Positions 1 to 12,057 of a DNA stretch of 12,057 nucleotides are shown in pieces. Position 1 is the stretch's first letter. Every line of letters starts with the position of its first letter. This DNA is from a virus. Its lineage: Duplodnaviria > Heunggongvirae > Uroviricota > Caudoviricetes. Location: IMG/VR virus record IMGVR_UViG_2558860274_000002. One strand, 5' to 3'. Made by a program: the position numbers and the translations under genes. The notes below the pieces were generated by a model. The model saw only the letters and a list, made by a program, of their open reading frames with translations. It had not been told where the DNA came from and ran no database searches.

Positions 1-219
1 TTACATCCACATAATTTGCTGCCCTGACGGCAACGGGTGCGGCCTTACGGCGTGGACTTCTCCCGGCTTCACGATGTATCGCTGTACCGACTCATAAGTG
101 ATGAACGTGGCGCTGCAATTCACGTTCTGGCACTGGTGATAACGCTCTTTTGTCGTGTCAGTGATATAGCGGCTTGTACGCGCATGTGCGGCATGCTGGC
201 ATAAAGGACAATGAAACAT
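1..219 (-). CDS. ogr: Ogr, P2-type late-gene transcriptional activator (Cys4 zinc finger), 72 aa
   Basis: Minus-strand ORF; translation from the internal Met (MFHCPLCQHAAHARTSRYITDTTKERYHQCQNVNC...) gives 72 aa, the length and N-terminus I recall for P2 Ogr. Has the C-x2-C...C-x4-C zinc-binding pattern. RBS-like GGAAGAGG lies 8 nt upstream of this ATG. The 93-aa extension to nt 282 is probably not translated. Confidence 0.9.
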   Translation of the reverse strand: MFHCPLCQHAAHARTSRYITDTTKERYHQCQNVNCSATFITYESVQRYIVKPGEVHAVRPHPLPSGQQIMWM

Positions 220-300
220 CGCGAGCACCTCTTCCGGTTTTGTTGATGGTGCCATTTTAGTTAATTTATCCTTATAAAACAAACAGATAAATAAAAGATA
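220..300 (-). promoter_or_regulatory. Candidate ogr promoter in the D-ogr intergenic region
   Basis: 82-nt AT-rich spacer between D stop (301) and ogr start (219). On the minus strand there is a possible -35 TTGTTT (282..277), 17-nt spacer, and -10 TAAAAT (259..254). Hexamers picked by eye only. Confidence 0.3.
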
Positions 301-1464
301 TCACTCATCATCTTCTGTTTCGTACTCCACATCAGAAAGCCTTACCTCAAGTTCTAAGGACGTCGTGAAGCCGCTATTATTCAGAAAATGTGTCACCTTA
401 GTGATTGTCCAGTCCTGCTCGTCTATGACGCGCTTAAAGCCTGATACTTTGACCGGCGTTTCCGTGTAAATATCTGCCCGACCAGTAGCCAGACTGATGG
501 AGAACTCCGCAACGCCCCGTTGCAGCTTATCCCACTTCGCCTGAGCGGCGCGCATGGCCTGCGCTTTCGTGGCATATACCGTGGTCAGGGCAAAAACGTT
601 GTCAGCCTCACCTGCCATGTATTCACCTTCGCGCGCTTCCGGTACTTTTGGCGCTTTCTTCTGCGTGACTGGTTTCGCTTTCGGGTGTTCCAGTGCGCGC
701 AGGTGTTTCTCTTTCTTTTTGCGTTTCAGTTTTACCTTCTGCTTTTGCGGCTTCGGGTCTTTGGTGTGTAACCACTTTGCCGTTACGCCGGTGTAAGCTC
801 CACGGTCAGCAATCGCAAAATGATGACGGTCGCCGTCGCTGCGGGTGATGGTAATCTGCGGGATTTTTTTACCACTGGCCGTCACCCCCTGCCCCGCTTT
901 GAGAAACAACAGTTTTCCCATTTTTACAGAGACCTCACCGCCGTTGCGTTCTGCAAGACGGGTCAGGAATTTCGCATCAGACTCCTGCGACTGGTCGATG
1001 TGCGGGATTTTAATTCCGGCCAGTGACGGAGCGACACTGGCTTCCAGTCTGTTACGGGAGGCTATCGCCTCAACAATCGCACCGAGCGTGGTGTCATGCC
1101 AGGAGCCTTCACGGCGGGAATTGAGCGTCCCGCGGAAATCTGCACTCCGGGCGCGGATGGTAACCACATCCGGCGCGCCCCGGTGTTCAACCTCATCAAC
1201 GGTAAATTTCCCTTTGCATACCAGGGCAAAACCTTTCCAGCCGATATACACCGTCAGGACAGCGCCACGAACCGGCAGCCCGACCTGCCCGTCGGCATCG
1301 TTCAGTTCAATATCAAGCTGGTCAGCCTCAAAGCCCCGGTTATCCGTCAGGGTCATGCTCATCAGACGGTCGCTGATATTGCCGGTAATATCCCTGCTGT
1401 CGAGCATCAGCATGTAATCCGGTGTCAGCGTACTGCCTGCATCAAATGTCAGCGCATCCAGCAT
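301..1464 (-). CDS. D: Tail protein gpD (P2 late gene D family), 387 aa
   Basis: Minus-strand ORF; start at the internal Met (MLDALTFDAGSTLTPDYMLMLDSRDITG...) gives 387 aa, the length I recall for P2 gpD. Contains the lysine-rich stretch KDPKPQKQKVKLKRKKKEKH. G-rich RBS-like run directly upstream of the ATG at 1464. Immediately followed by ogr, as in P2. Confidence 0.9.
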   Translation of the reverse strand: MLDALTFDAGSTLTPDYMLMLDSRDITGNISDRLMSMTLTDNRGFEADQLDIELNDADGQVGLPVRGAVLTVYIGWKGFALVCKGKFTVDEVEHRGAPDVVTIRARSADFRGTLNSRREGSWHDTTLGAIVEAIASRNRLEASVAPSLAGIKIPHIDQSQESDAKFLTRLAERNGGEVSVKMGKLLFLKAGQGVTASGKKIPQITITRSDGDRHHFAIADRGAYTGVTAKWLHTKDPKPQKQKVKLKRKKKEKHLRALEHPKAKPVTQKKAPKVPEAREGEYMAGEADNVFALTTVYATKAQAMRAAQAKWDKLQRGVAEFSISLATGRADIYTETPVKVSGFKRVIDEQDWTITKVTHFLNNSGFTTSLELEVRLSDVEYETEDDE

Positions 1465-1489
1465 TATCCCGCCCCCGTCATACCCGTGA

Positions 1490-1759
1490 ATGAAAACCGC
1501 AATGGTGCTCAAGGCAAAAGACGTTATTCGCCGTGGCTGTCTGGAATATGACGTCAGCGCCACCGACATCACCAGCTCGTTTATGGCTATCCGCAAGACC
1601 ATGACCAGCAGCGGACGCAGCGCCACCTATGAGGCCAGCCGCAGCGAGGAAGCCAGCCACGCCGACCTCGCCTGGGCGACCATGCACGCCCTGTTAAATG
1701 AGCCACTCACCGCCGGTATCAGCACCCCGCTGACATCCACCATTCTGGAGTTTTACTGA
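1490..1759 (+). pseudogene. Probable 3' remnant of terminase ATPase gene P (truncated, 89 codons)
   Basis: ORF directly upstream of Q on the same strand, with its TGA stop (1757-1759) overlapping the Q ATG (1759-1761) in an ATGA arrangement, as expected for P-Q coupling. The frame is closed by a TGA at 1487-1489, so at most 89 codons remain versus roughly 590 expected for P. Identity as P is inferred from position only; I cannot recall the P C-terminal sequence. Confidence 0.4.
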
Positions 1760-2793
1760 TGAGCAAGAAAAAAGGGAAAACACCGCAACCTGCGGCAAAA
1801 AAAATGACCGCCAGCGCCCCGAAAATGGAGGCATTCACCTTTGGTGAGCCGGTGCCGGTGCTCGACCGCCGTGACATTCTGGATTACGTCGAATGTATCA
1901 GTAACGGCAGATGGTATGAGCCGCCGGTCAGCTTTACCGGTCTGGCAAAAAGCCTGCGTGCTGCCGTGCATCACAGCTCACCGATTTACGTCAAACGCAA
2001 TATTCTGGCTTCAACGTTTATTCCGCATCCGTGGCTTTCCCAGCAGGATTTCAGCCGCTTTGTGCTGGATTTTCTGGTGTTCGGCAATGCGTTTCTGGAA
2101 AAGCGTTACAGTACCACCGGTAAGGTCATCAGACTGGAAACCTCACCGGCAAAATATACCCGCCGTGGTGTGGAAGAGGATGTTTACTGGTGGGTGCCGT
2201 CCTTCAACGAGCCGACAGCCTTCGCGCCCGGCTCCGTGTTTCACCTGCTGGAGCCGGATATTAATCAGGAGCTGTACGGTCTGCCGGAATATCTCAGCGC
2301 CCTTAATTCTGCCTGGCTGAATGAGTCGGCCACGCTGTTCCGCCGCAAGTATTACGAAAATGGCGCACATGCCGGATACATCATGTACGTCACTGATGCC
2401 GTGCAGGATCGCAACGATATCGAAATGCTACGCGAAAACATGGTTAAGTCGAAAGGCCGCAATAACTTTAAAAATCTGTTTCTCTATGCCCCACAGGGGA
2501 AAGCCGACGGCATTAAAATTATCCCCCTCAGTGAAGTGGCGACGAAGGACGATTTTTTTAATATCAAAAAAGCCAGCGCCGCTGACCTGCTGGACGCGCA
2601 CCGCATCCCCTTTCAGTTGATGGGTGGCAAGCCGGAGAACGTCGGGTCGCTGGGTGATATAGAGAAAGTGGCAAAGGTCTTTGTCCGCAATGAGCTTATC
2701 CCGTTACAGGACAGGATCCGCGAGATAAACGGCTGGCTCGGTCAGGAGGTCATCCGCTTTAAAAACTACTCACTGGACACTGACAACGGCTGA
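1759..2793 (+). CDS. Q: Portal (capsid vertex) protein gpQ, 344 aa
   Basis: 344-aa ORF, the length I recall for P2 gpQ, transcribed toward the cos site as in P2. Start ATG overlaps the upstream ORF stop. Followed by a strong intrinsic terminator. Confidence 0.9.
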   Translation: MSKKKGKTPQPAAKKMTASAPKMEAFTFGEPVPVLDRRDILDYVECISNGRWYEPPVSFTGLAKSLRAAVHHSSPIYVKRNILASTFIPHPWLSQQDFSRFVLDFLVFGNAFLEKRYSTTGKVIRLETSPAKYTRRGVEEDVYWWVPSFNEPTAFAPGSVFHLLEPDINQELYGLPEYLSALNSAWLNESATLFRRKYYENGAHAGYIMYVTDAVQDRNDIEMLRENMVKSKGRNNFKNLFLYAPQGKADGIKIIPLSEVATKDDFFNIKKASAADLLDAHRIPFQLMGGKPENVGSLGDIEKVAKVFVRNELIPLQDRIREINGWLGQEVIRFKNYSLDTDNG

Positions 2794-2798
2794 ACATC

Positions 2799-2820
2799 GC
2801 CGCCTGTGGGCGGCTTTTTT
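2799..2820 (+). terminator. Rho-independent terminator downstream of Q
   Basis: GCCGCC (2799-2804), loop TGTG, GGCGGC (2809-2814), then a run of six T (2815-2820), starting 6 nt after the Q stop codon. Confidence 0.65.
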
Positions 2821-2962
2821 ACACCCCGCCATCACGCCCTCACACGCTCACCACCGCACAAAACAGCCCGCATACACACCAACGCCCCGGCGAACAATCT
2901 AAACGCCATCACAACGCGCTCAGACGCTGAAAAAATAAAATCAGCACCACCGCCAGCGCGCA

Positions 2963-2981
2963 GTGCTTTCCCCACCTCGCC
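2963..2981 (-). other. cos site: 19-nt P2/P4-type cohesive-end sequence (terminase cleavage site)
   Basis: Minus strand reads GGCGAGGTGGGGAAAGCAC, one mismatch from the P2/P4 cohesive end as I recall it (GGCGAGGCGGGGAAAGCAC). The flanking C/A-rich sequence 2821-2962 also resembles my recollection of the P2/P4 left-end sequence. Position between Q and the right-end genes is as expected. Confidence 0.7.
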
Positions 2982-3004
2982 CGCCCGCTTCGTGGGGCGG
3001 TTTT
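2981..3004 (+). terminator. Terminator-like GC hairpin abutting cos
   Basis: CCGCCC (2981-2986), 8-nt loop, GGGCGG (2995-3000), followed by TTTT (3001-3004). Function not established; may be part of the terminase recognition region instead. Confidence 0.3.
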
Positions 3005-3138
3005 AATGCAGGTGTAAATTCAGTCTAAATACATACCTGTCGGGTCATCAAGCTTGTGCGCTCACTCAATAAAACACATGCAAATAAATGCATATAGACA
3101 TGCGCTACCAACTTGCACTAGCCATGTACATCAGGTAA

Positions 3139-4971
3139 TTAACAACGTAATTCTGTACAATTAGCCCATTCTTCAGAAAAAACAGCATCTGAAGATTTTG
3201 GCCCTGGCCTTGCTTGATTAATTGAAATTCTTACAGGCAAATTAAATGCAGAACCAAATGCAACAGCATCACCTCTTGGTAAACCTGATATTTGTTTTAA
3301 GATTTGTTCATTACCGCTTTCCATTGCATATCTGAGAGCCTGTAAATCTCTTTCATTAGTCAAACGTAACGAAAACCAGTTTGAACACATTGCCAAAACA
3401 GTAGGAGAAAGCTCTGAGGGTCGCTGAGTACTGACAATTAAAGAGCATTTGAATTTCCTACCTTCTTTAGCAAGTCGTTCATATGCTTTAATCTGTGAGT
3501 CAATTTCAGCATAAGGGTCACGCAGGTAATGATGCGCTTCTTCCAACAAAAGTACCGTAGGATACGAACGTTCCTGCCCACGTCTAAATAGTATCTCAGC
3601 AAACATCTCCAACAATGCACTAAGTAACATTGGAGCATGATCTTGTGCCAAATTTTTCATATTAACTATATGAACATTCCAATCATTTTCTTGTCCTTTT
3701 TCCTTACCAAAGAAGTAATCAACTTCATCACTCATAGCTTTATCCCAATGCGTTCCACCATCTGCTAGCTCACCCCCTCCATTTAAATTAACAATAGATT
3801 TAAATCTTATATCCTCTGCAAGTTGTTGTATGATTTTTACCAATGGCAACACGTTACTAAAACCAAACGCGTCACGTTTACTTCCATTAGAACGGTCAGC
3901 AGCTACACATCCAAATTCAGCAACCAAAGTCGCTAAACTTTTAAACGGCGGCCATACATTCGTTCTTTTAAGACGTCTACGCCTTAATAAATCCAACCAC
4001 TCAGCCAATTTACTTTGATTTGTGTCACGACAATCATCATACAAAAGAAAAGTTTCACCATCATTTTTTTCCAAGTAAATATTACGGCTTTTAAAATGAG
4101 TCCGATTAATTGCACTTAATGCATTTCTTAATGCGGGCAATTGTGTTTTATCACTTGGTCTTAATAATTTAATTAACCCAGCAAAACCTAATGCCTGATA
4201 TGGTATCTTTTTATAACAATAATACTCTTCACTATATAGCTCACCCTTTTGCTGATTTTTTTCCAAACTATCAACATTTGGGGATTCCCCTAGAATAGTG
4301 TGCTTTACATTTGGAATACCTGTAAAAGCTTGCGCGTATTCACCATTTATGTCAAAAATAACTATTCTTGAGTTAGGGTATTTTTCAGAAACCTTCCTCG
4401 TTAACAAAGCATTGAAATTTGATTTACCATATCCTGTACTACCAAGAACGGCTAAGTGTCGCGACAATAATTTATCAACACTTGCAAATATCTTAACGGT
4501 TTTAGTTCGAGAATCCACACCTAATTCAACCGCTTTTGGGAGTTCTTCTTTATCAATACTATAAATGATGTTCAAAAAATCTGAAGTCAAAGGAACAGCA
4601 GAAGAACCCAATGCAGGTAAGCGCCAATCTTCTGATATAAAAACATAACCATTTAACTCCCTTTTCACAAAGCCAATTGCATAGGCGATAATTTGTCTTA
4701 GAGGTATATCAGCTAAATCAGATGTGCCTACATTTGCCTTATGCGCTTTATCCGCTTCAACAAATGCCATATCTGTCACTCTTGCGACAACTAATATATT
4801 ACCTGCATCGAACCCAATAAGATCTCCTGGTTGCGTTACTGAGCTCACCCCCTTTCTATGCGATGCTAATCTGCCTTGCAACCCCTCATGCAGGTTTATC
4901 CTAATTCTTTCCCCTTCTAATCCTACAACGTATCCAATAGCCGAGATTTCAGTAAGTTTAAAAAGGGACAT
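3139..4971 (-). CDS. herA: HerA-like (FtsK/HerA superfamily) ATPase, 610 aa; second gene of a SIR2-HerA-type defence operon
   Basis: Walker A LAVLGSTGYGKSN, Walker B TVLLLEEAHHYL, and the HerA/FtsK-typical LIVSTQRPSEL motif. Start taken at the internal Met (MSLFKLTEIS..., ATG at 4971) because AGGAGA lies 5 nt upstream and the ATG sits just inside the 3' end of the sir2-like gene. The ORF track's start at 5022 has no such support. AT-rich relative to phage core genes. Confidence 0.85.
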   Translation of the reverse strand: MSLFKLTEISAIGYVVGLEGERIRINLHEGLQGRLASHRKGVSSVTQPGDLIGFDAGNILVVARVTDMAFVEADKAHKANVGTSDLADIPLRQIIAYAIGFVKRELNGYVFISEDWRLPALGSSAVPLTSDFLNIIYSIDKEELPKAVELGVDSRTKTVKIFASVDKLLSRHLAVLGSTGYGKSNFNALLTRKVSEKYPNSRIVIFDINGEYAQAFTGIPNVKHTILGESPNVDSLEKNQQKGELYSEEYYCYKKIPYQALGFAGLIKLLRPSDKTQLPALRNALSAINRTHFKSRNIYLEKNDGETFLLYDDCRDTNQSKLAEWLDLLRRRRLKRTNVWPPFKSLATLVAEFGCVAADRSNGSKRDAFGFSNVLPLVKIIQQLAEDIRFKSIVNLNGGGELADGGTHWDKAMSDEVDYFFGKEKGQENDWNVHIVNMKNLAQDHAPMLLSALLEMFAEILFRRGQERSYPTVLLLEEAHHYLRDPYAEIDSQIKAYERLAKEGRKFKCSLIVSTQRPSELSPTVLAMCSNWFSLRLTNERDLQALRYAMESGNEQILKQISGLPRGDAVAFGSAFNLPVRISINQARPGPKSSDAVFSEEWANCTELRC

Positions 4972-6205
4972 TACCTTCTCCTTTAGAAAGATTAGCAATT
5001 GCTTCAACCAACTCATCAACAATATTATCTCGTGGAAAGAGCACAGGGTATGGTAGATGTTCTACGAAACTATTAAAATATGCCTTGCTTCCTCCCCCAA
5101 CTACAGTTACTTGATTGAAAGCCATATTTTTTAAAGTAACAATAGCTTTCTCAGCTTCCGAACCGCCACCCTTACTTACTTTGGCAATTGCTTCTTTCAA
5201 TTCAGGATAATATATAACAACATGGAAAGATGGATTCAGTAACGCGCCTAATATTATTCTATTTATATGATAATCACCGAAACCAAACCCATTTATGAAC
5301 AACGCTGTTTGAGGTTTCGAAATAAACTCCCCAAAACGTCTAAACATCTCTCCATAAACGAAGCCGATTGTATGGCTATATTTATTCGCCCCTGGATAAA
5401 TCAAATGTTGACCGCGATAAAAGTCATCTTTATTGATTATGTCATTAATATATTCATCATATGCTTGAGATGCACTAACTTCGTTAACAGTCAAGCTATC
5501 ATTTTGATACCACGTAAGTGAGCCATGTAATTTATAGAGATACGCATGATAATGTCCGAATCTTGCTTCGCCCTTCGCATTTACATTTCTGAAAGCCAAA
5601 TCAAAATTCTGGGGATAAAACTGCCGTGTATGTAGCCCAGAAAAACCATTAAACAACTGTATTCCTAAATCTTCTGCAGCCCACTCTAAGGCCAAATCAT
5701 AATTTGTTGTGAAAATTGCCGGAGCCGACTGACCGGGCTGTCTATTTGAAATTAATTTTGAAATTAACTCTTTGTGATATTTAAACGCATCTTTTTTACC
5801 CTGATTTTTCTCTCTAAACTGCTCTCCTGTTAATAATGCAGCCTTCGTAACCTCTTTATATAATGAACTTAATATCTTCCTGAATTCCTCCTCTTCATCT
5901 TCACATCGTCTAGTTTTAGCTACAGAAAGAAATTTAGTTGCTTCATCTATCAAAAGTTCAACATTGACCAAATTGTTATCAGAATCAATTTGCGAAACCA
6001 GAAGATATTTATCAATAAGTGCTCCCAAAAGCTCAGGGTAGTTTTGCTTAAACGATTTCCATACATCTTTCATCGTTTTCCCACCACAACCGACAGAAGC
6101 ACCAGCACCTAACAGAACGCCAACATTATCTAATTGACACAAGGAATAAACGTGAGAACGAAAATCATCCTCATTTAACTTGTTACCACCTTGATAAATC
6201 GACAT
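4958..6205 (-). CDS. sir2: SIR2-like domain protein (predicted NAD+-consuming effector), about 415 aa; first gene of the SIR2-HerA-type operon
   Basis: Rossmann-type glycine motif VLLGAGASVGCGG, then IFTTNYDLALEWA (Asn/Asp motif typical of prokaryotic defence SIR2 domains) and YLYKLHGSLTW (catalytic His-Gly). About 180 aa C-terminal extension. Start placed at the second ATG (6205) because AAGGA lies 5 nt upstream; the first ATG (6211) is an alternative. AT-rich. Confidence 0.85.
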   Translation of the reverse strand: MSIYQGGNKLNEDDFRSHVYSLCQLDNVGVLLGAGASVGCGGKTMKDVWKSFKQNYPELLGALIDKYLLVSQIDSDNNLVNVELLIDEATKFLSVAKTRRCEDEEEEFRKILSSLYKEVTKAALLTGEQFREKNQGKKDAFKYHKELISKLISNRQPGQSAPAIFTTNYDLALEWAAEDLGIQLFNGFSGLHTRQFYPQNFDLAFRNVNAKGEARFGHYHAYLYKLHGSLTWYQNDSLTVNEVSASQAYDEYINDIINKDDFYRGQHLIYPGANKYSHTIGFVYGEMFRRFGEFISKPQTALFINGFGFGDYHINRIILGALLNPSFHVVIYYPELKEAIAKVSKGGGSEAEKAIVTLKNMAFNQVTVVGGGSKAYFNSFVEHLPYPVLFPRDNIVDELVEAIANLSKGEGNVPF

Positions 6206-6211
6206 AAACAT

Positions 6212-6326
6212 CCTTTTACAAATTTTAAAATTAGCTAAGTTACTACATTAAAAATCAAATATTAGAAAAAGTCATTACTCATAATCACACAATAGATTCA
6301 TAGGGTTAGCATAGTCACAATAGCTA
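6212..6326 (-). promoter_or_regulatory. Probable promoter region of the SIR2-HerA operon
   Basis: 115-nt very AT-rich spacer between the A stop and the sir2 start. One candidate on the minus strand: -35 TTGATT (6258..6253), 17-nt spacer, -10 GCTAAT (6235..6230). Not validated. Confidence 0.3.
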
Positions 6327-8450
6327 TCATTGTTGATTATCAGCATCCTGTACATTGAAAATCGCGGTTGACTCGCCAACTATGCCTGCTCGTGTGTCTC
6401 CTTTGTTTGTACATTTACGTGATGCTTCTATTTTCAATGCCAGATTAAGCACTTTCAAGACCTCCGGGTCATTCCATTCGATAACACCGTCATCTACCAG
6501 ATTAAGCACTGCTGCGGCGTGCTCAGAAGGTGTGGGAGCCGGTAACGAAGTATCGCCACAGGTGAGCTTTCCACAGTTATTGACAGGACTCCGAGGCGCG
6601 GCGATGCCGCTTTTTAAAGTCAAAGGCTCAACGACCGGAACTTTCGACACAATGCGCCAGTCCGTCGTTCTGGTGATATGAATATGACGCGCGCCGAGAT
6701 GCGGCGCGTAAATGCCGACCACTCTCTCGACTTCTTCCTCGTACTCGTTAACTTCATCCGACGGACTACGGGCGACCCTGACAGTCTGACAATCGCGCGG
6801 GACATTTGCCCCACCCTGCGCGCTGATATACAACGCAAAATCACCACTGTCTGCGGCGGCGCGTGCAGCCTCGACGCGCTCGTCAAACTCATCAGCAATG
6901 CTGACGCCGCGAGGCAATTTGCGTAGTTCACGGTAAGCCCCCATTGTCGGCAGACCAACCGTTTTAAATTGTGGGATGCGCCACGTTGACGCCCATGCGG
7001 TAACAGCCGCAGCAGTGTCTTTCAGCGGTCTGCCGGTATCGTTATCGAGCTGACCATCCAGTGCATAGCCATCGATGTTTTTTGAGATGTATTTCGCGAT
7101 ATACCCCGCAGCACCGCCCTGGTTAAGGTGTTTTGCCTGAAAACGGTTTCGCGCGGCTCCTCTTTCGTCGCCATCCTCTTTGAGCGCATAGCGACGCATG
7201 ATTTCGATAATCTGGTTACGCTGGCGTGGATTACAAAAAAGCATCATATGCCAGTGCGGCGTTCCGTCGTGGTGTGGCTCGACGACACGCAAACCGTAGA
7301 CCTGTAAATCATTATCCTTGAATGCCGTGCGCATCAGGCTCCAGATATGGCAGAGATAACGCTGCGCATCCTTTGGATTAAATGCCTCATCGTTCCAGCC
7401 GTGATTTAGCTGGACGGTTTTACTTTCGCCTTTTCCGACCTGACGTGTCGGGTGATACTTTGACGGCGCGGTAAGCGTGATAAACATCCCCACATCACCC
7501 TCTGCGGCGGCGTAACGCTCAATACCGGCAATGGTGTTCATCAGCTCCATCCGGCGAATTTCAGGATTAGAAATACTGCCCATCACCTTACTGATAAGGT
7601 CGATGCGCTCGCCGGTTTCCCTGTTTTCAAGGTCACACGATTTAAGAAATTCCAGATTTGCCTGGCGGCGTGCACGCACATCACGAATGGCATGTTTACT
7701 GGCATAAGGAGAACGGTCTTTATTCACCTCCCCGACAGCAATCAGTAACGCCTCATGCCAGCGCATACGCTGGCCTTTGAGCTGATGAGTCCACCACTCA
7801 TCGTTAAACAGACGGGCAATGGCAGAATATGCCTGCCTCGTGGTCATCTGTCCTTTACGGTATTTTTTCCAGTAAAGCGGGGAAATATTGAAAGCACGTG
7901 CAGCGCCAGCAACATGACCATAGAGGTGAGCCTGCGCCTCATCCGTAAACAGCGATTCTTTTTCGCCATGTGCATCCACCCAGGCATCGCTGAGTTCCTC
8001 ATACATCATGAAAAGCTGCGATGAGATACGGGCGGCAAACTTTTTCAGCTCCTTGTCATTCATTCCCGGCAGGCGCGCATAGTGGTCACGCTCTGCCAGA
8101 AACAGCAACGACGCGTCGGTGTTCATTTCATGGCGCTGATTCACGCGCTCAATGCGCGGCCATAAACGACGCTGAAAAGTGGATGTGAGGAAATAAAACC
8201 CGTGCACCGGGCTTTTATTGCGCCGGATGTAGTCATAGCGTGAAGTAAACAGCGAGCGCAAAAAGTAAGGCAGGCGGTTAATCGTGGATAAAACACCTTG
8301 CACCTGACGCATCTCGTCACGTGTAAGAGGTCTTTCGCGCCCGACAGCCTCGCGTGGCGCGTTCCATGCATAAGCACCGGTAAACGCCTTACCGGTGCCT
8401 GCGGCAAATGCTGACGGAGGGACAAAACGCCCGGAGGCTTTAACGGCCAT
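6327..8450 (-). CDS. A: Replication initiation endonuclease gpA (rolling-circle HUH-type initiator), 707 aa
   Basis: Start at the internal Met (MAVKASGRFVPPSAFAAG..., ATG at 8450), which I recall as the P2 gpA N-terminus. HUH-type metal-binding motif PHWHMMLF and paired-tyrosine motif GYIAKYISK typical of rolling-circle initiators. My recollection is that P2 gpA is about 761 aa, so the C-terminus here may be shorter or divergent. Confidence 0.9.
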   Translation of the reverse strand: MAVKASGRFVPPSAFAAGTGKAFTGAYAWNAPREAVGRERPLTRDEMRQVQGVLSTINRLPYFLRSLFTSRYDYIRRNKSPVHGFYFLTSTFQRRLWPRIERVNQRHEMNTDASLLFLAERDHYARLPGMNDKELKKFAARISSQLFMMYEELSDAWVDAHGEKESLFTDEAQAHLYGHVAGAARAFNISPLYWKKYRKGQMTTRQAYSAIARLFNDEWWTHQLKGQRMRWHEALLIAVGEVNKDRSPYASKHAIRDVRARRQANLEFLKSCDLENRETGERIDLISKVMGSISNPEIRRMELMNTIAGIERYAAAEGDVGMFITLTAPSKYHPTRQVGKGESKTVQLNHGWNDEAFNPKDAQRYLCHIWSLMRTAFKDNDLQVYGLRVVEPHHDGTPHWHMMLFCNPRQRNQIIEIMRRYALKEDGDERGAARNRFQAKHLNQGGAAGYIAKYISKNIDGYALDGQLDNDTGRPLKDTAAAVTAWASTWRIPQFKTVGLPTMGAYRELRKLPRGVSIADEFDERVEAARAAADSGDFALYISAQGGANVPRDCQTVRVARSPSDEVNEYEEEVERVVGIYAPHLGARHIHITRTTDWRIVSKVPVVEPLTLKSGIAAPRSPVNNCGKLTCGDTSLPAPTPSEHAAAVLNLVDDGVIEWNDPEVLKVLNLALKIEASRKCTNKGDTRAGIVGESTAIFNVQDADNQQ

Positions 8451-8715
8451 ATGAGCCAAAAGCCTCAGAACAACGCTTGCTGAGTTGCTCAACCTGCGCG
8501 TTTAAATCAGCAAAAGACTTTGCGCTTCCGGTCAGAATATCGTGATGCATCAGGCCGGAAACGAGCTGGATTAATTTCGGGTAATAACCAACCACCGCCA
8601 GCCATTCCTGACCGGCGTTTTTACCGCTTTCCGCTCTCTTTTTCTCGTGGAGAATAAACTGAAAGCTGTCACTGGTAACGACATAACGTTCGCCAATTTC
8701 AATACGAATACTCAT
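8440..8715 (-). CDS. P2 orf83-like small protein (function unknown)
   Basis: 91-aa ORF in the orf80-83 position between B and A. Its stop overlaps the A start by 11 nt and its start overlaps the upstream gene's stop. Confidence 0.6.
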   Translation of the reverse strand: MSIRIEIGERYVVTSDSFQFILHEKKRAESGKNAGQEWLAVVGYYPKLIQLVSGLMHHDILTGSAKSFADLNAQVEQLSKRCSEAFGSYGR

Positions 8716-8936
8716 GCCGTTCTCCGGTAATGCTTGTTTTTTGCTTCAAAGACTGACTGGCAGGAAACACAACGCGTGGCTGACGGATAAGCTGCACGAC
8801 GGGCAGCAGGTATTGGCGCGTCACACTCTTCGCAAACCAGCGCAGAAACACCGCTATGTTTTACCCTTGCCGCGTTAATCTGGCGCTCCAGTAATTCAGC
8901 CTGTTGTTCCTGAATAAAATCTATGTTGTCCGGCAT
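8712..8936 (-). CDS. TraR/DksA-family C4 zinc-finger protein (P2 orf82-like)
   Basis: 74-aa ORF with CEEC-x17-CVSC, the C-x2-C-x17-C-x2-C spacing typical of TraR/DksA-family proteins. Start and stop codons overlap those of both neighbours. Confidence 0.7.
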   Translation of the reverse strand: MPDNIDFIQEQQAELLERQINAARVKHSGVSALVCEECDAPIPAARRAAYPSATRCVSCQSVFEAKNKHYRRTA

Positions 8937-9241
8937 TACCAGCTCCTTTTGTCGTTCAGCTTCTTAAATTCATCAGCGCAATAGCTGGCGATTTCTGTCG
9001 TTAATTTTGTCAGTTCATCCACGGATGAAATTTGCTTATGAAATACAGCGCGTTTAACAAGTAAATTGACCACATCAGACAGGAGGTTTAATTCATTCTG
9101 ATAAATCGCGATAACAGATTCAGTTATGTCGCGTTTTTCTTTATCAAGACAAAGTTGAATAAGAGACAAATCGCCATTTTTCATAACGGCGATTTTTAAG
9201 GCGTTATTCAGTAATACAACTGAATGAGAACAGGACATCAA
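8936..9241 (-). CDS. P2 orf81-like small protein (function unknown)
   Basis: 101-aa ORF, tightly coupled to both flanking ORFs in the early operon. No recognisable motif. Confidence 0.55.
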
Positions 9242-9462
9242 AGCACCTCCCCGCGAGACAATCCGATATTGTGAAATTTTTCCGACTCCTGACTGAGCAG
9301 CTCGACTATCTCCACGCGGGATAACTCCGCCTTTGTGATATGGCGAATCATGGCGTCAAGATGAGAAGAAAAGCGCGTCGCAGCGTCGGCCTGTGCTTCG
9401 GTTCTGGCCTGTTGCAGCAGTAATGCGTATTTACCGCACTGATTTTCAGAAACTGTATGCAT
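9238..9462 (-). CDS. P2 orf80-like small protein (function unknown)
   Basis: 74-aa ORF, first gene after B in the early operon. Its stop overlaps the start of the next ORF. Confidence 0.55.
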
Positions 9463-9525
9463 GACTTTCTCCAGGCAAAAAGAAGCCCCGCACGATTAAG
9501 TGCGTTAAAAACTCTGGTTAATTAC

Positions 9526-10026
9526 TTAATGCAGATATTGCTCTGGTTTTACCGACGTCAGAATTGTCGGTGCATACTCAAACAGGCTGAATAATTCACG
9601 TAATGCACGGAATAAAGCATCACGCCAGTAACATGACTCTTCATTAATTCGCCAGTATGGCTGGTTGAATTCTTTTTCAGTCAATCCGGCATGCATAAAT
9701 AAAGTACGACGCTGACTGACTGTTAAAAAACTAATATATGCATACTCACTTGCGCCAACCTGACGGCGTTTTGAGAATGCCCCACGCAATTCATCAATTG
9801 CACAAACCAGCCGTTCACGTTCGACGTCGTTCATTTCTTCAAAACGCATCGTTGCGTGACGCTGTTTTAACTGCGCATGAAAGCAAACCGTTAACCGTTC
9901 GCGCTCCATCATCTGATTATAATAATCACATGTATCCTGCCAGCGAGGGACGGCCAGATGCTTACCAATTATCCGGCGCATAGTTGCTGGCTGTTTTTCG
10001 ACGAGATTGAGCGTCATCACTGTCAT
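9526..10026 (-). CDS. B: Replication protein gpB (helicase-loader-type early protein), 166 aa
   Basis: 166-aa ORF, the length I recall for P2 gpB, in the expected position between orf78 and orf80. Confidence 0.85.
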   Translation of the reverse strand: MTVMTLNLVEKQPATMRRIIGKHLAVPRWQDTCDYYNQMMERERLTVCFHAQLKQRHATMRFEEMNDVERERLVCAIDELRGAFSKRRQVGASEYAYISFLTVSQRRTLFMHAGLTEKEFNQPYWRINEESCYWRDALFRALRELFSLFEYAPTILTSVKPEQYLH

Positions 10027-10259
10027 TTCCAGAACCTCCGGCTTTTCAGAAAGGTCAGAGCCTTTTTTAACGGACTCTGTTTTTTGGTGCGGATAATGAT
10101 TCCCTTGCGACCCTTCCCGTGGGTGATGGTGAAGTCAATCGCCCTGGGGCTTTCGTTACGCAATAACTGAGCAATACAACGAGGCTCGTTCATCCTTTCC
10201 ACCTTAAGCCGCACGGCCATGTCTTGATTTGCTGTAACTAATGCGATTTTTCCAGTCAT
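10023..10259 (-). CDS. P2 orf78-like small protein, 78 aa
   Basis: Starting at the internal Met (MTGKIALVTANQDMAVRLK...) gives exactly 78 aa. Stop overlaps the B start (ATGA-type). The longer 96-aa form in the ORF track would overlap cox even further. Confidence 0.6.
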   Translation of the reverse strand: MTGKIALVTANQDMAVRLKVERMNEPRCIAQLLRNESPRAIDFTITHGKGRKGIIIRTKKQSPLKKALTFLKSRRFWK

Positions 10260-10575
10260 GCCATTCTGTCGGAGCTTCATCAACCAGTTGGGCTGCGTAC
10301 TTGTCCCACTCACGGCGATTAATCCATAATTCAGCTTTCCCTCTTGGTTTTAATGGGTCTGTCATGTAGAAGGCTGGCAGCTTTCCTGCTTTAGCCATTT
10401 CAGCCACCGCGCGTGGTGTCTTACCGATGTAAAGAGCAAAACCTTCTTTCGACAGCAAATCAGATGGGCGCTCTGAAATCTGAATGCTTTTACGTTTGGC
10501 TTCATTTTCGAAACTTGCCTCATCGCTAGTTGGACAAGAAATTTCTACATTTGTCGTCACTTTGCTATCCTCCAT
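10204..10575 (-). CDS. cox: Cox-like excisionase / early transcriptional repressor (winged-HTH)
   Basis: First gene of the leftward early operon, divergent from C. The segment GFALYIGKTPRAVAEMAKAGKLPAFYMTDP resembles the Cox DNA-binding region as I recall it. Start uncertain: the ATG at 10575 has no RBS, whereas an in-frame GTG at 10560 is preceded by GGAGGA with a 7-nt spacer (118 aa). The ORF is longer than P2 Cox (91 aa) and overlaps the orf78 start. Confidence 0.65.
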   Translation of the reverse strand: MEDSKVTTNVEISCPTSDEASFENEAKRKSIQISERPSDLLSKEGFALYIGKTPRAVAEMAKAGKLPAFYMTDPLKPRGKAELWINRREWDKYAAQLVDEAPTEWHDWKNRISYSKSRHGRAA

Positions 10576-10668
10576 AAGATTTGCGATTCACCAACTGGAG
10601 CCATCTAGAGCCTTTTTGAGTGAATCACAAATTGCCAAGTAGCAATATAATTGGAGATTAGCAAAATT
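10576..10668. promoter_or_regulatory. Immunity switch region (divergent Pe/Pc-type promoters and operators) between cox and C
   Basis: 93-nt spacer between the divergent cox and C starts. Contains a 7-bp inverted repeat GATTCAC (10585-10591) / GTGAATC (10620-10626) and a TATAAT hexamer (10646-10651) on the plus strand. Operator assignment not made. Confidence 0.5.
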
Positions 10669-10968
10669 ATGTCAAGTGAACAAAGTGAGAAACTAAAGCT
10701 CATCCGTGAATCCGAACGCCTTAAAACTAAGGAACTTGCTGAATTAATTGGAATTAATTACTACACATATCATGGATATGAATCAGGAAAATCAAAAATG
10801 CCTATGGAAGCAGGTATGAAGCTGTTTAAGCATCCACGCTTTCGCAAGTATCGTGACTGGTTCATGTTTGATGAAACAGATCCAGCAGCTGGACAAATAG
10901 CCCCGGCTCTCGCACACATTGGGCAAGACTCAACAACCTTGCACCACTCAGACCAGAAGACTGGCTGA
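10669..10968 (+). CDS. C: Immunity repressor C (P2 C family), 99 aa
   Basis: From the ATG at 10669 the ORF is 99 aa, the P2 C length. C-terminal DPAAGQIAPALAHIGQD...SDQKTG closely resembles the P2 C C-terminus as I recall it. The ORF track's start at 10651 is a TTG and less likely. Confidence 0.85.
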   Translation: MSSEQSEKLKLIRESERLKTKELAELIGINYYTYHGYESGKSKMPMEAGMKLFKHPRFRKYRDWFMFDETDPAAGQIAPALAHIGQDSTTLHHSDQKTG

Positions 10969-11061
10969 CGATTTATTCAGCATATGTGTGTAGTAAATGT
11001 ACGAAAGAAAATTGCATTAATTTTCAAGTAGTAGAAGTAAACAGCGTCATCGGAGGGCTTT

Positions 11062-12057
11062 ATGTCTATTAAAAAGCTCGATGATGGTCGTTATGAAGTG
11101 GACGTCAGACCGCAGGGTGCAGATGGAAAACGTATCAGGCGGAAATTTAAAACTAAAGGTGAAGCTCAGGCATTCGAACGTCATGTACTGGTTAACTACC
11201 ACAACAAAGAGTGGTTGGAGAAACCAGCCGACCGCCGAACTCTTACAGAGTTGTTAGGTAGATGGTGGATATATCACGGAAAATCACATGAGCGTGGAGA
11301 TATTGAACGGGGGCGTTTAACGACAATAATCGCCAAATTTGCAGAAATGGGAGTGTCCAGAGCTGACCAGCTAACAAAGAAAACGATAACTGATTATCGC
11401 GTTGTAATGATGAACGATGGTCTAAAACCAGCCAGCGTAAATCGACATCTGGCAATAATGAGCGGGATGTTCACCAAGTTAATTGACGCCGGTGAATACC
11501 ACTCCCACAACCCGTTCCGTGAGATTAAACGGTTACGTGAAGCTGTTACGGAAATGGCTTTTTTGTCCAGTGAAGAGATTACGCGGCTGTTATCCATGCT
11601 TGATGGTGATGAATTAAATGCAACTCTGGTCTGCCTTTCTACTGGTGGACGCTGGAGTGAAGTGTCTAATTTAAAAGCTGAACACATCATTAACCAGATG
11701 GTTACGTTTATGAAAACTAAAAACGGAAAACGCAGGACAATTCCCGTTTCGCAGGACCTGATTAAACGGATCAAGACCAAAAATTCAGGCAGGCTTTTTA
11801 ATGCCAGTTACTACAAAGTGCGTAACGCTCTCAGGGAAGTAAAACCCGATTTACCTGACGGACAAGCAGTACATGTTTTGAGGCATACATTTGCCACACA
11901 TTTTATAATGAATGGAGGTAACATAATCACATTGCAGCGCATCCTGGGTCATTCTAACATTCAGCAAACTATGACCTACGCACACTTTGCACCGGATTTC
12001 TTACAAGATGCTGTGACTCTTAACCCGGTGTCAGGAATGTCCATAATGCGTCCATAA
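11062..12057 (+). CDS. int: Tyrosine integrase (P2 Int family), 331 aa
   Basis: N-terminus MSIKKLDDGRYEVDVRPQGADGKRIRRKF resembles P2 Int. Tyrosine-recombinase motifs HVLRHTFATHF and the catalytic Tyr context QTMTYAHF are present. GGAGGG RBS 4 nt upstream. Downstream of C on the same strand, as in P2. The stop codon is the last 3 nt of the window. Confidence 0.9.
   Translation: MSIKKLDDGRYEVDVRPQGADGKRIRRKFKTKGEAQAFERHVLVNYHNKEWLEKPADRRTLTELLGRWWIYHGKSHERGDIERGRLTTIIAKFAEMGVSRADQLTKKTITDYRVVMMNDGLKPASVNRHLAIMSGMFTKLIDAGEYHSHNPFREIKRLREAVTEMAFLSSEEITRLLSMLDGDELNATLVCLSTGGRWSEVSNLKAEHIINQMVTFMKTKNGKRRTIPVSQDLIKRIKTKNSGRLFNASYYKVRNALREVKPDLPDGQAVHVLRHTFATHFIMNGGNIITLQRILGHSNIQQTMTYAHFAPDFLQDAVTLNPVSGMSIMRP

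What the first reader, a model, noticed from the sequence alone, without database searches (positions are those of the whole stretch)
3004..6370. Sharp compositional island between cos and the 3' end of A
By eye the region from just right of the cos hairpin to the last codons of A is markedly AT-rich (sampled 60-nt lines are roughly one-third G+C), while flanking phage core genes are over one-half G+C. This indicates horizontally exchanged cargo at a fixed locus. The AT-rich tract appears to include the final 10-15 codons of A, suggesting the recombination boundary lies inside the A 3' end and that the A C-terminus here may be island-derived.
Basis: seen in the sequence. Interest (0 to 1): 0.45.

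Follow-up and report, generated by a model that had tools for sequence, protein, structure and literature searches.

The report
SIR2–HerA defence cassette in P2 hotspot
The AT-rich block is a known two-gene anti-phage system (SIR2–HerA, "Nezha") in the well-documented variable slot between gene A and cos of a P2-like prophage, and it arrived with a foreign, now decayed, end of gene A.

Summary
G+C drops from about 0.54 to 0.37 between maximum-likelihood change points 3000 and 6458. These coincide with the points where homology to P2-like phages stops (3010–3017 and 6448–6455).

The island holds one operon on the minus strand:
- sir2 (4958–6205) is 414/415 identical to PDB 8J4U.
- herA (3139–4971) is 608/610 identical to PDB 8J4U. 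This is the characterised E. coli "Nezha" NAD-depleting abortive-infection system.

The locus is the known gpA–gpQ, cos-adjacent defence hotspot of P2-like phages. Rousset et al. 2022 already list SIR2+HerA as its 14th most common cargo.

The last 43 codons of A (6327–6454) and the spacer to sir2 are the decayed 3' end of a different-lineage A gene that travels with the cassette. That end carries a 120-nt in-frame deletion and two 1-nt deletions. A therefore lacks the conserved C-terminal ~90 residues.

This segment occurs only in the 20 of 5,426 complete E. coli genomes that carry the island.

The whole window is a 12-kb prophage remnant, with about 23 kb (estimated) of morphogenesis genes deleted at 1489–1491.

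Verdict: real, explained and essentially already known. The junction anatomy is a modest new detail.

The parts
2963..2981 (.). cos, the 19-nt cohesive-end sequence. It has one mismatch to P2 at 2974.
   Evidence: This stretch aligns to both the left end (1–19) and the right end (33575–33593) of the P2 record.
2981..3010 (+). Conserved cos-flanking segment, including the GC-rich hairpin at 2981–3000. It is the last sequence shared with all P2-like phages before the variable region.
   Evidence: The hairpin was found. P2 homology ends at 3010, 11W at 3014 and OU784746 at 3017. All SIR2–HerA carriers with a continuous match there resume P2 homology at the same P2 coordinate, 33546.
3011..3138 (-). 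Non-coding 3' end of the cassette, downstream of herA.
   Evidence: G+C is 0.41. It has no homology to P2, 11W or OU784746.
3139..4971 (-). herA: a HerA-type hexameric ATPase/helicase of 610 aa. The true start is M18 of the listed ORF. The Walker A motif is GSTGYGKS.
   Evidence: PADLOC HerA E=3e-277. Pfam DUF87 / HerA central domain. 608/610 identical to PDB 8J4U chain M.
4958..6205 (-). sir2: a SIR2-family NADase effector of 415 aa. It overlaps herA by 14 nt, so the two form one operon.
   Evidence: PADLOC SIR2 E=5e-190. Pfam SIR2_2. 414/415 identical to PDB 8J4U chain A.
6206..6326 (-). Spacer upstream of sir2. It holds the out-of-frame remnant of the ancestral last codons of the cassette-linked A gene (...DSYCDYANPMNLLCDYE**, ancestral stop about 6277–6275). 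It also holds the sir2 ribosome-binding site and a probable promoter.
   Evidence: It is about 80% identical to the last 30 A codons plus spacer of L009. Conserved blocks, a −10-like CATAAT/TAATAT and the Shine-Dalgarno AAAGG(G)A appear across carriers. The promoter is inferred only; the promoter scan was not enriched.
6327..6454 (-). Cassette-derived tail of the A reading frame, 43 codons: LKVLNLALKIEASRKCTNKGDTRAGIVGESTAIFNVQDADNQQ*.
   Evidence: It is not P2-like. It is present only in the 20 island-carrying genomes and in no phage record. It is homologous to L009-type A, with a 120-nt in-frame deletion followed by two 1-nt deletions.
6455..8450 (-). P2-type core of replication gene A. The Phage_GPA domain, the active-site Tyr450/Tyr454 and the ori nick region (about 6580–6600) are retained.
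   Evidence: 98.5% identical to P2. Pfam Phage_GPA E=2e-124. Alignment A1. The P2 nick site at 29892 maps to about 6592.
6440..6510 (.). Exact 14-nt direct repeat CCAGATTAAGCACT at 6440–6453 and 6497–6510, bracketing the crossover point.
   Evidence: One copy is native to A (codons AVLNL). The other lies in the cassette-type A segment (KVLNL).
1489..1491 (.). Deletion junction of the prophage remnant. The last 27 nt of gene U are fused to codon ~500 of terminase gene P, with 3 nt of overlap.
   Evidence: Window 1–1491 matches ogr–D–U' of 11W, and 1489–2981 matches P2 1491–1. Pfam finds GPD, Ogr_Delta and Terminase_6C.

Best explanation
The AT-rich block (about 3011–6454) is a horizontally exchanged defence cassette. 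It occupies the cos-adjacent gpA–gpQ hotspot of a P2-like prophage, the slot where P2 itself carries old and tin.

The cassette is the two-gene sir2–herA operon. It is transcribed in the same direction as A and is essentially identical to the biochemically and structurally characterised E. coli 'Nezha' system. [quoted passage not shown] These activities are held in check by ATP and are unleashed during phage infection. NAD+ is then depleted and the infection aborts. The prophage thereby protects its host from other phages.

Shown here:
- the compositional step;
- the gene identities;
- the locus;
- a cos-side boundary fixed at the same P2 coordinate in all but two of the mapped carriers (in those two the weak match breaks into pieces);
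- an A-side boundary that lies inside A.

Inferred: the cassette moves between P2-like phages by recombination. One end is anchored at or next to cos. The second is a homologous crossover within the 3' part of A, so the last codons of A hitch-hike with the cargo.

In this lineage the crossover lay about 290 nt before the P2 A stop. The imported A 3' end later suffered an in-frame 120-nt deletion and two 1-nt deletions. The resulting A' (707 aa) keeps the catalytic tyrosines and ori but lacks the conserved C-terminal ~90 residues.

Inferred, not shown: A' is impaired, the prophage lineage is immobilised and decaying, and the defence cassette is being kept by selection.
For: Composition. The change points at 3000 and 6458 match the homology breakpoints at 3010–3017 and 6448–6455.

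Gene identity:
- PADLOC SIR2 5e-190 and HerA 3e-277.
- 414/415 and 608/610 identity to PDB 8J4U.
- 8J4U is named as Nezha, with its activities described, in PMC13434337.

Locus:
- P2 has orf91, tin and old between A and cos.
- Rousset 2022 describes the gpA–gpQ hotspot with 1,650 arrangements in 18,150 loci. It lists 'SIR2 | DUF87 = SIR2+HerA' as system 14, with 188 loci.
- The listed E. coli genomes with conserved flanks carry varied other cargo.
- Only 20 of 5,426 genomes have this island, at 99.5–99.9% identity.

Exchange between backbones:
- SIR2–HerA relatives (69–88% aa) sit at the same place in P2-like contigs whose A is only 47–97% identical to P2 A.
- The cos-side boundary is at P2 33546 in all carriers with a continuous match there.
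- The A-side boundary lies inside A in every carrier where it could be mapped precisely: −71 nt in L017–19, −184 nt in L021 and −290 nt here.
- The A terminal ~24 codons (..FCDDxNSLNxW..) track the cargo rather than the A backbone, and are AT-rich at 0.31–0.41 G+C.

Origin of the tail:
- The tail plus spacer is 77–80% identical to the L009 A 3' end.
- The ancestral terminal codons are still visible out of frame.
- The tail is exclusive to island carriers.

Decay:
- PGAP calls A a pseudogene missing its C-terminus in FG92-1, O121 and O18.
- Four different internal configurations share the same A' and cassette: O121 looks complete, while O18, FG92-1 and the window each have a different deletion.
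- 83 of 86 deposited phages keep at least 80% of the A C-terminal 119 aa.
Against: - No activity, expression or phage-resistance test was possible here. Function rests on near-identity to published proteins.
- The promoter is not established. The σ70 scan shows no enrichment.
- The recombination mechanism is inferred from boundary positions only.
- That A' is non-functional is unproven. The catalytic tyrosines and ori are intact.
- One structurally complete-looking prophage (O121) carries A'.
- Up to about 20% of E. coli P2-like A genes lack a megablast-detectable P2-type distal segment.
- At least one deposited phage (pro483) has a shortened or divergent A end.
- No progenitor with this cassette allele and an intact A was found.
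Confidence: 0.88

Rival explanations
1. The island was inserted by a discrete mobile element (transposon, IS-mediated insertion or site-specific integration) that landed in the 3' end of A. The A tail would then be fortuitous read-through into unrelated inserted DNA.
For: A 14-nt exact direct repeat (6440–6453 and 6497–6510) sits at the A-side junction. The composition changes abruptly.
Against: - The island has no transposase or integrase. Only sir2 and herA exceed 110 aa.
- There are no terminal inverted repeats, and no copy of the 14-mer at the cos-side end.
- The cos-side boundary is the same nucleotide used by unrelated cargo in P2, 11W and OU784746.
- The 'read-through' sequence is demonstrably a diverged A 3' end.
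- The 14-mer reflects an internal similarity of A (AVLNL and KVLN[LG]) that is also partly present in L009.
Confidence: 0.03
2. The low G+C is not a mark of foreign origin. It would be an intrinsic or selected property of this part of P2-like genomes, for example AT-rich regulatory DNA or mutational drift of non-essential DNA that evolved in situ.
For: Other parts of the early region are also lower in G+C: 0.36–0.40 at 8851–9300 and 10501–10800. Defence genes are commonly AT-rich.
Against: - The same cassette family has 0.36–0.41 G+C in every host. It matches its flanks in Vibrio, Photobacterium and Shewanella but is 9–15 points below them in enterobacterial P2-likes.
- The cassette is present in only 20 of about 1,680 E. 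coli genomes with a P2-type A.
- It occurs in unrelated A backbones.
Confidence: 0.04
3. A' is a fully functional natural variant of the replication initiator, because the C-terminal ~90 residues are dispensable. The carrier prophages would then be ordinary, inducible phages, and the deletions seen would be unrelated decay.
For: - The catalytic Tyr450/454, the Phage_GPA domain and ori are intact.
- The O121 prophage looks structurally complete.
- Two other carrier lineages (L021 on a 31-kb contig, L015 on a 35-kb contig) also have short A genes.
- pro483 has a shortened A end.
- Up to 20% of E. coli loci lack the P2-type distal segment.
Against: - The lost segment (…SARLTRSERLQITRIRVDLAQNGIRPQRWELEALARGA…) is conserved across A proteins that are only 58–75% identical overall.
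- It is kept in 83 of 86 deposited phages.
- The tail shows frameshift-type decay rather than a clean alternative ending.
- All viral and metagenomic contigs with this allele whose whole length could be judged as a phage are short remnants of 12–23 kb.
- Three independent internal deletions occur among the four carriers examined.
Confidence: 0.3

Closest known systems
E. coli Sir2–HerA 'Nezha' anti-phage system (PDB 8J4U; also 8SU9, 8SUB, 8SUW, 8UAE, 8UAF)
   Same: The two-gene operon has sir2 followed by an overlapping herA. SIR2 is 414/415 identical (one A/T substitution at residue 341) and HerA is 608/610 identical (N/K at residue 239 and N/D at residue 303) to the solved chains. It hits the same PADLOC families.
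   Different: There are three conservative or surface-type substitutions only. The genomic context described here (a decayed P2-like prophage with a chimeric A) is not discussed in the papers I could read.
P2 gpA–gpQ (cos-adjacent, 'old/tin' or TO) defence hotspot of P2-like phages (Odegrip 2006; Rousset et al. 2022, PMC9122126)
   Same: The position is the same, between replication gene A and cos/portal gene Q. The flanks are conserved and the cargo varies. SIR2+HerA is already catalogued as system 14 of this hotspot.
   Different: The representative SIR2+HerA in their table is a different allele. Its HerA begins MSHFKLSELS…, like the ~76–78%-identity clade of L011–L021. Here the A-side boundary cuts unusually deep into A (−290 nt) and A is truncated.
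P2 old and tin lysogenic-conversion genes
   Same: They occupy the same slot. They are AT-rich, non-essential genes of a prophage that exclude other phages.
   Different: The proteins are unrelated. The P2 record places the old–tin mRNA start near cos, reading towards A. sir2–herA is transcribed away from A, towards cos.
Sir2–HerA homologues of Vibrionaceae and Shewanella (e.g. the V. cholerae classical-biotype Nezha, PMC11559045)
   Same: They are homologous two-gene systems: 57–61% aa identity for SIR2 and 57–61% for HerA. Their G+C is about the same, around 0.39–0.41.
   Different: They are not in P2-like phages, with no A or Q nearby. Their upstream region is unrelated.

Membership tests
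SIR2–HerA (Nezha) defence system | A SIR2-family (SIR2_2) effector protein | tested here: met
   PADLOC SIR2 E=5e-190, Pfam PF13289 E=3e-10, and 414/415 identity to 8J4U_A.
SIR2–HerA (Nezha) defence system | An adjacent HerA/DUF87 P-loop ATPase in the same operon | tested here: met
   PADLOC HerA E=3e-277, Pfam PF01935, Walker A GSTGYGKS, 608/610 identity to 8J4U_M, and a 14-nt overlap with sir2.
SIR2–HerA (Nezha) defence system | NAD+ depletion and protection against phage (abortive infection) | not testable with these tools
   Reported for the 8J4U system in the literature summarised in PMC13434337. Inferred here from more than 99.5% identity.
P2-like gpA–gpQ defence hotspot | Located between replication gene A and cos / portal gene Q of a P2-like element | tested here: met
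   A lies at 6327–8450, cos at 2963–2981 and Q at 1759–2793.
P2-like gpA–gpQ defence hotspot | Conserved flanks with different cargo in related phages and prophages | tested here: met
   P2, 11W and OU784746 share the flanks but not the island. The E. coli genomes listed carry retron RT, Old-like ATPase, S8 peptidase+AAA and others. Rousset reports 1,650 arrangements.
Intact P2 A (GPA) rolling-circle initiator | Phage_GPA domain with the two active-site tyrosines, and ori inside the gene | tested here: met
   PF05840 E=2e-124. Y450 and Y454 are invariant in alignment A1. The ori nick region at about 6580–6600 matches P2. Calling these residues the active-site tyrosines rests on my own knowledge of P2 A.
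Intact P2 A (GPA) rolling-circle initiator | Full-length conserved C-terminal region (P2 residues ~676–761) | tested here: not met
   It is replaced by a 43-codon decayed heterologous tail. The protein is 707 aa against 754–770 aa. PGAP annotates it as a pseudogene.
Transposon or IS-borne insertion | Transposase or integrase, terminal inverted repeats, target-site duplication at both ends | tested here: not met
   No such gene or repeats were found. The 14-nt repeat is present at one end only.
Intact P2-like prophage | A complete set of head, tail and lysis genes | tested here: not met
   The window runs ogr–D–U'|P'–Q. Everything between U' and P codon ~500 is absent.

The most novel reading that the evidence does not exclude
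Cassettes at the P2 hotspot are exchanged as 'A-3'-end + cargo' modules. One end is fixed 29 bp from the cos cut and the other is a homologous crossover inside A. In this lineage the imported A end decayed, crippling the replication initiator and locking the prophage in the chromosome. The Nezha system is then being domesticated as a host defence locus while the rest of the phage erodes by independent deletions. A further speculative step is that carrying a replication- or ATP-sensing abortive-infection system selects for loss of the prophage's own replication: 3 of about 9 carrier lineages have a decayed A 3' end.
Probability: 0.3. Interest if true: 0.4.

Novelty: already known. Interest (0 to 1): 0.2.

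Why it matters
The main point is a clean negative. The 'sharp compositional island' is a catalogued defence system in a catalogued phage hotspot, so it needs no new biology.

The junction anatomy has modest value. Rousset et al. left open how cargo is swapped at this hotspot. They speculated that one event occurs at the cos ends and a second by homologous recombination. The following observations are the footprints that model predicts, and they could guide a systematic test:
- an invariant cos-side boundary;
- A-side boundaries that always fall inside A;
- A terminal codons that co-vary with the cargo.

The window also illustrates a defence cassette outliving its phage vehicle.

Tried and rejected
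- **Transposon or target-site-duplication reading of the 14-nt repeat at the A junction.** Rejected. There is no partner at the other end, no IRs and no transposase. The repeat reflects an internal similarity of A.
- **Search for a progenitor with this cassette allele and an intact A.** I used the viral, species-genome and metagenome collections. Every copy has the same A' junction.
- **Test of whether A truncation is enriched among SIR2–HerA carriers.** Three of about 9 lineages are truncated. The base rate of E. coli loci lacking a P2-type distal A segment may be as high as about 20%, so no claim can be made.
- **σ70 promoter scan.** Eleven sites were found against 11.1 expected. It is uninformative.
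- **Rfam scan of the whole window.** No family matched.
- **Upstream region of sir2 compared with non-phage homologues.** No similarity was found, so the A-terminal block is specific to the P2-borne clade.
- **Odegrip et al. 2006.** This is the original description of the variable locus. It is not held in the library, so I could not check what it says about the borders.

Full report
**1. The observation**

The G+C profile shows a plateau of 0.50–0.59 from about 450 to 3000. A trough of 0.33–0.42 follows from 3000 to 6450, and G+C returns to 0.47–0.59 up to about 8850.

A two-breakpoint likelihood segmentation places the steps at 3000 and 6458. The support intervals are 2996–3067 and 6339–6514, and the gain is 108 nats over a single composition.

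Segment values are 0.540 (1–3010), 0.366 (3011–6454) and 0.535 (A core). Third-position G+C is 0.25–0.28 in the two island genes against 0.56–0.64 in A and Q.

**2. What the window is**

Pfam and BLAST against P2 (NC_001895) and phage 11W identify the following, from left to right:

| Coordinates | Strand | Feature |
|---|---|---|
| 1–282 | − | ogr |
| 301–1464 | − | D |
| to 1491 | − | last 27 nt of U |
| 1490–1759 | + | last 90 codons of terminase gene P |
| 1759–2793 | + | portal gene Q |
| 2963–2981 | . | cos |
| about 3011–6454 | − | the island |
| 6327–8450 | − | A |
| 8440–10026 | − | orf83–orf80 and B |
| 10204–10575 | − | cox |
| 10651–10968 | + | C |
| 11062–12057 | + | int |

The window is thus an entire P2-like prophage remnant, running from the ogr stop codon to the int stop codon. 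About 23 kb (my estimate from the P2 map) of head, lysis and tail genes are removed at a junction with 3 nt of overlap (1489–1491).

**3. What the island is**

Only two long ORFs lie in the island, both on the minus strand and overlapping by 14 nt.

- The upstream one (4958–6205, 415 aa) hits PADLOC SIR2 at 5e-190 and Pfam SIR2_2.
- The downstream one (3139–4971, 610 aa) hits PADLOC HerA at 3e-277 and Pfam DUF87/HerA, with a GSTGYGKS Walker A motif.

They are 414/415 and 608/610 identical to the chains of PDB 8J4U, and to 8SU9 and related entries. A 2026 NAR paper names 8J4U as the E. coli Sir2–HerA 'Nezha' system. [quoted passage not shown] These are masked by ATP and released when ATP falls during infection (PMC13434337).

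No Rfam family is present in the window.

**4. The locus**

In P2 the same interval holds orf91, tin and old. Rousset et al. 2022 describe the region between gpA and gpQ, next to cos, as a hotspot with 1,650 gene arrangements in 18,150 E. coli loci. Their Table S5B lists 'SIR2 | DUF87 – SIR2 + HerA (Gao et al., 2020)' as the 14th most frequent system, with 188 loci.

My own searches agree:

- 2,151 of 5,426 complete E. coli genomes match parts of the window.
- Only 20 carry this island, all at 99.5–99.9% identity.
- No deposited phage carries it.
- Genomes sharing both flanks show retron reverse transcriptases, Old-like ATPases, S8 peptidase+AAA (ietAS), lone SIR2 proteins, DprA, methylases and IS elements instead.

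**5. The boundaries**

*Cos side.* Homology to P2 ends at 3010, to 11W at 3014 and to OU784746 at 3017. This is 29–36 nt beyond the cos cut and just past the GC-rich hairpin at 2981–3000. Eleven other SIR2–HerA-carrying loci, one of them a copy of the window's own allele, were compared with P2. Nine resume homology at exactly this P2 coordinate, 33546. The other two start one base away and then break off.

*A side.* DNA identity to P2 (98.5%) stops at 6455, which is 290 nt before the P2 A stop. The protein is identical to P2-type A through …VIEWNDPEV. It then reads LKVLNLALKIEASRKCTNKGDTRAGIVGESTAIFNVQDADNQQ*, where P2, 11W and OU784746 share a conserved stretch of about 97 residues.

The 161-nt segment 6300–6460 is found only in the same 20 genomes that carry the island, and in no phage record.

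**6. Where the A tail comes from**

SIR2–HerA relatives with 69–88% aa identity occur between A and Q in at least 13 other viral contigs and in a Scandinavium genome. Their A proteins range from 47 to 97% identity to P2 A.

In most of these carriers:

- A is full length (754–770 aa), and sir2 starts 54–73 nt after its stop.
- In L017–19, whose A is 95–96% P2-like, P2 homology ends 71 nt before the A stop. In the diverged carriers L010, L011, L014 and L023 it ends 62–106 nt before the stop.
- The last ~24 codons (…F/S-C-x-D-x-N-S-L-N-x-W…) resemble each other whatever the A backbone.
- Those codons are AT-rich, at 0.31–0.41 G+C against 0.48 in P2.

So the A-terminal codons travel with this cargo.

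The window's tail and spacer align to the A 3' end of L009 as follows:

- 6520–6433 is 77% identical.
- The next ~17 codons resemble L009-type A (VVKVLNGALKAGAPRKN) more than P2-type A.
- There is a net 120-nt in-frame gap. It removes the conserved …SARMTKSERDRVAKISFDLAQKGISPERWELDAL… segment.
- 6372–6206 is about 80% identical to L009's last 30 codons plus spacer.
- Two 1-nt deletions shift the frame. A therefore stops at 6327, while the ancestral ending (…DSYCDYANPMNLLCDYE** against L009 …DSSCDCNNSLNLWCDHER*) is still legible out of frame, with its stop at about 6277–6275.

The tail is a decayed heterologous A end rather than cargo, and it is 43 codons long rather than 10–15.

The upstream block is not shared with the non-phage homologues in Vibrio, Photobacterium or Shewanella.

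**7. State of A and of the prophage**

A' keeps the Phage_GPA domain, Tyr450/Tyr454 and the ori nick region at about 6580–6600. It lacks a C-terminal region that is conserved among A proteins only 58–75% identical overall. That region is retained in 83 of 86 deposited phages. PGAP annotates the gene as a pseudogene missing its C-terminus.

The same A' and cassette occur in several configurations:

- a prophage that looks complete over the ~20 kb fetched upstream, in E. coli O121;
- a copy with a J-to-O deletion, in O18;
- a copy with a sheath-to-P deletion, in FG92-1;
- the window, with a U-to-P deletion.

They are also linked to two different immunity/integrase modules. The window and strain A17 have an 11W-type module. 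The yegQ–yegR copies have another module that is only 66–70% identical over the short stretches that still align.

Every further viral or metagenomic copy of this allele has the same junction. The three viral contigs that carry it are short, at 12–23 kb.

I infer that A' is impaired and that the lineage is eroding while the cassette is maintained. This is not demonstrated. Two other carrier lineages (L021, L015/16) have independently decayed A ends. However, up to about 20% of E. coli P2-type A genes lack a recognisable P2-type distal segment, so no enrichment can be claimed.

**8. Origin of the low G+C**

The cassette family has 0.36–0.41 G+C everywhere. It equals the flanks in Vibrionaceae, Shewanella and a low-G+C P2-like contig (L020). 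It lies 9–15 points below the flanks in enterobacterial P2-likes. This supports foreign origin rather than in-situ drift.

**9. Mechanism of exchange (inferred)**

Three features fit the two-event model that Rousset et al. proposed as speculation, with one event at the cos ends and one homologous recombination:

- a fixed cos-side edge;
- A-side edges scattered within the A 3' end;
- hitch-hiking of the A terminal codons.

The alternative of transposition is rejected. There is no transposase, no inverted repeats and no target duplication. The 14-nt repeat at 6440–6453 and 6497–6510 is at one end only, and it reflects an AVLNL/KVLNL similarity within A.

**10. Verdict**

The feature is real and fully explained by known biology. 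It is a known defence system, more than 99.5% identical to solved structures, in a known phage hotspot where that system is already catalogued.

The new elements are the chimeric, decayed A 3' end and the evidence that the A terminal codons co-transfer with the cargo. They are of modest interest.

Noticed in passing
window 1–1760 (junction 1489–1491): The window is a whole 12-kb prophage remnant, running from the ogr stop codon to the int stop codon. The last 27 nt of U are fused to codon ~500 of terminase gene P with 3 nt of overlap, which removes about 23 kb (estimated) of head, lysis and tail genes. No complete E. coli genome or fetched contig has this exact junction.
   Followed up: partly
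window 6440–6453 and 6497–6510: An exact 14-nt direct repeat (CCAGATTAAGCACT) lies 57 nt apart and brackets the crossover point in A. It corresponds to the codons AVLNL (native) and KVLNL (cassette-type). It could have served as microhomology for the crossover or could result from gene conversion.
   Followed up: partly
window 2963–2981: The 19-nt cos sequence differs from P2 at one position (2974: A here, G in P2 on this strand).
   Followed up: no
window 10207–12057 vs L002/L033/L034: The immunity (C) and integrase module of the window is 11W/A17-type. Only short stretches of it align, at 66–70% identity, with the module of the yegQ–yegR prophages that carry the identical cassette and A'. 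The A'+cassette block has therefore been recombined onto at least two prophage backbones and integration specificities.
   Followed up: partly
window 8851–9300, 9451–9750 and 10501–10800: Further, smaller low-G+C patches (0.36–0.40) lie in the early region (orf81/82 area, B region, C–cox intergenic). They suggest additional mosaic segments.
   Followed up: no
window ~8423–8482 vs L004 (OU784746) 4199–5281: In OU784746 a cysH-like PAPS reductase gene sits between A and orf83, at a point where the window has nothing. This is a second small variable site in P2-like early operons.
   Followed up: no
L020 ~480–1367: A low-G+C P2-like contig carries an extra ORF of roughly 270 aa with predicted transmembrane helices between A and sir2. 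It is clearly homologous to system 12 of Rousset's P2-hotspot table. Two hotspot systems are thus stacked in one locus.
   Followed up: no
L015 5450–5985; L021 5600–5945: Two other SIR2–HerA-carrying P2-like contigs (35 kb and 31 kb) have independently truncated A genes (690 and 706 aa). Decayed A 3' sequence is still present between the premature stop and sir2.
   Followed up: partly
L002, L033, L034 (E. coli FG92-1, O121, O18): The three carrier prophages examined sit between yegQ and yegR/yegS, the site of the K-12 ogrK P2 remnant. Each has a different internal deletion state. FG92-1 also has an IS1 and a ParDE toxin–antitoxin pair next to the site.
   Followed up: partly
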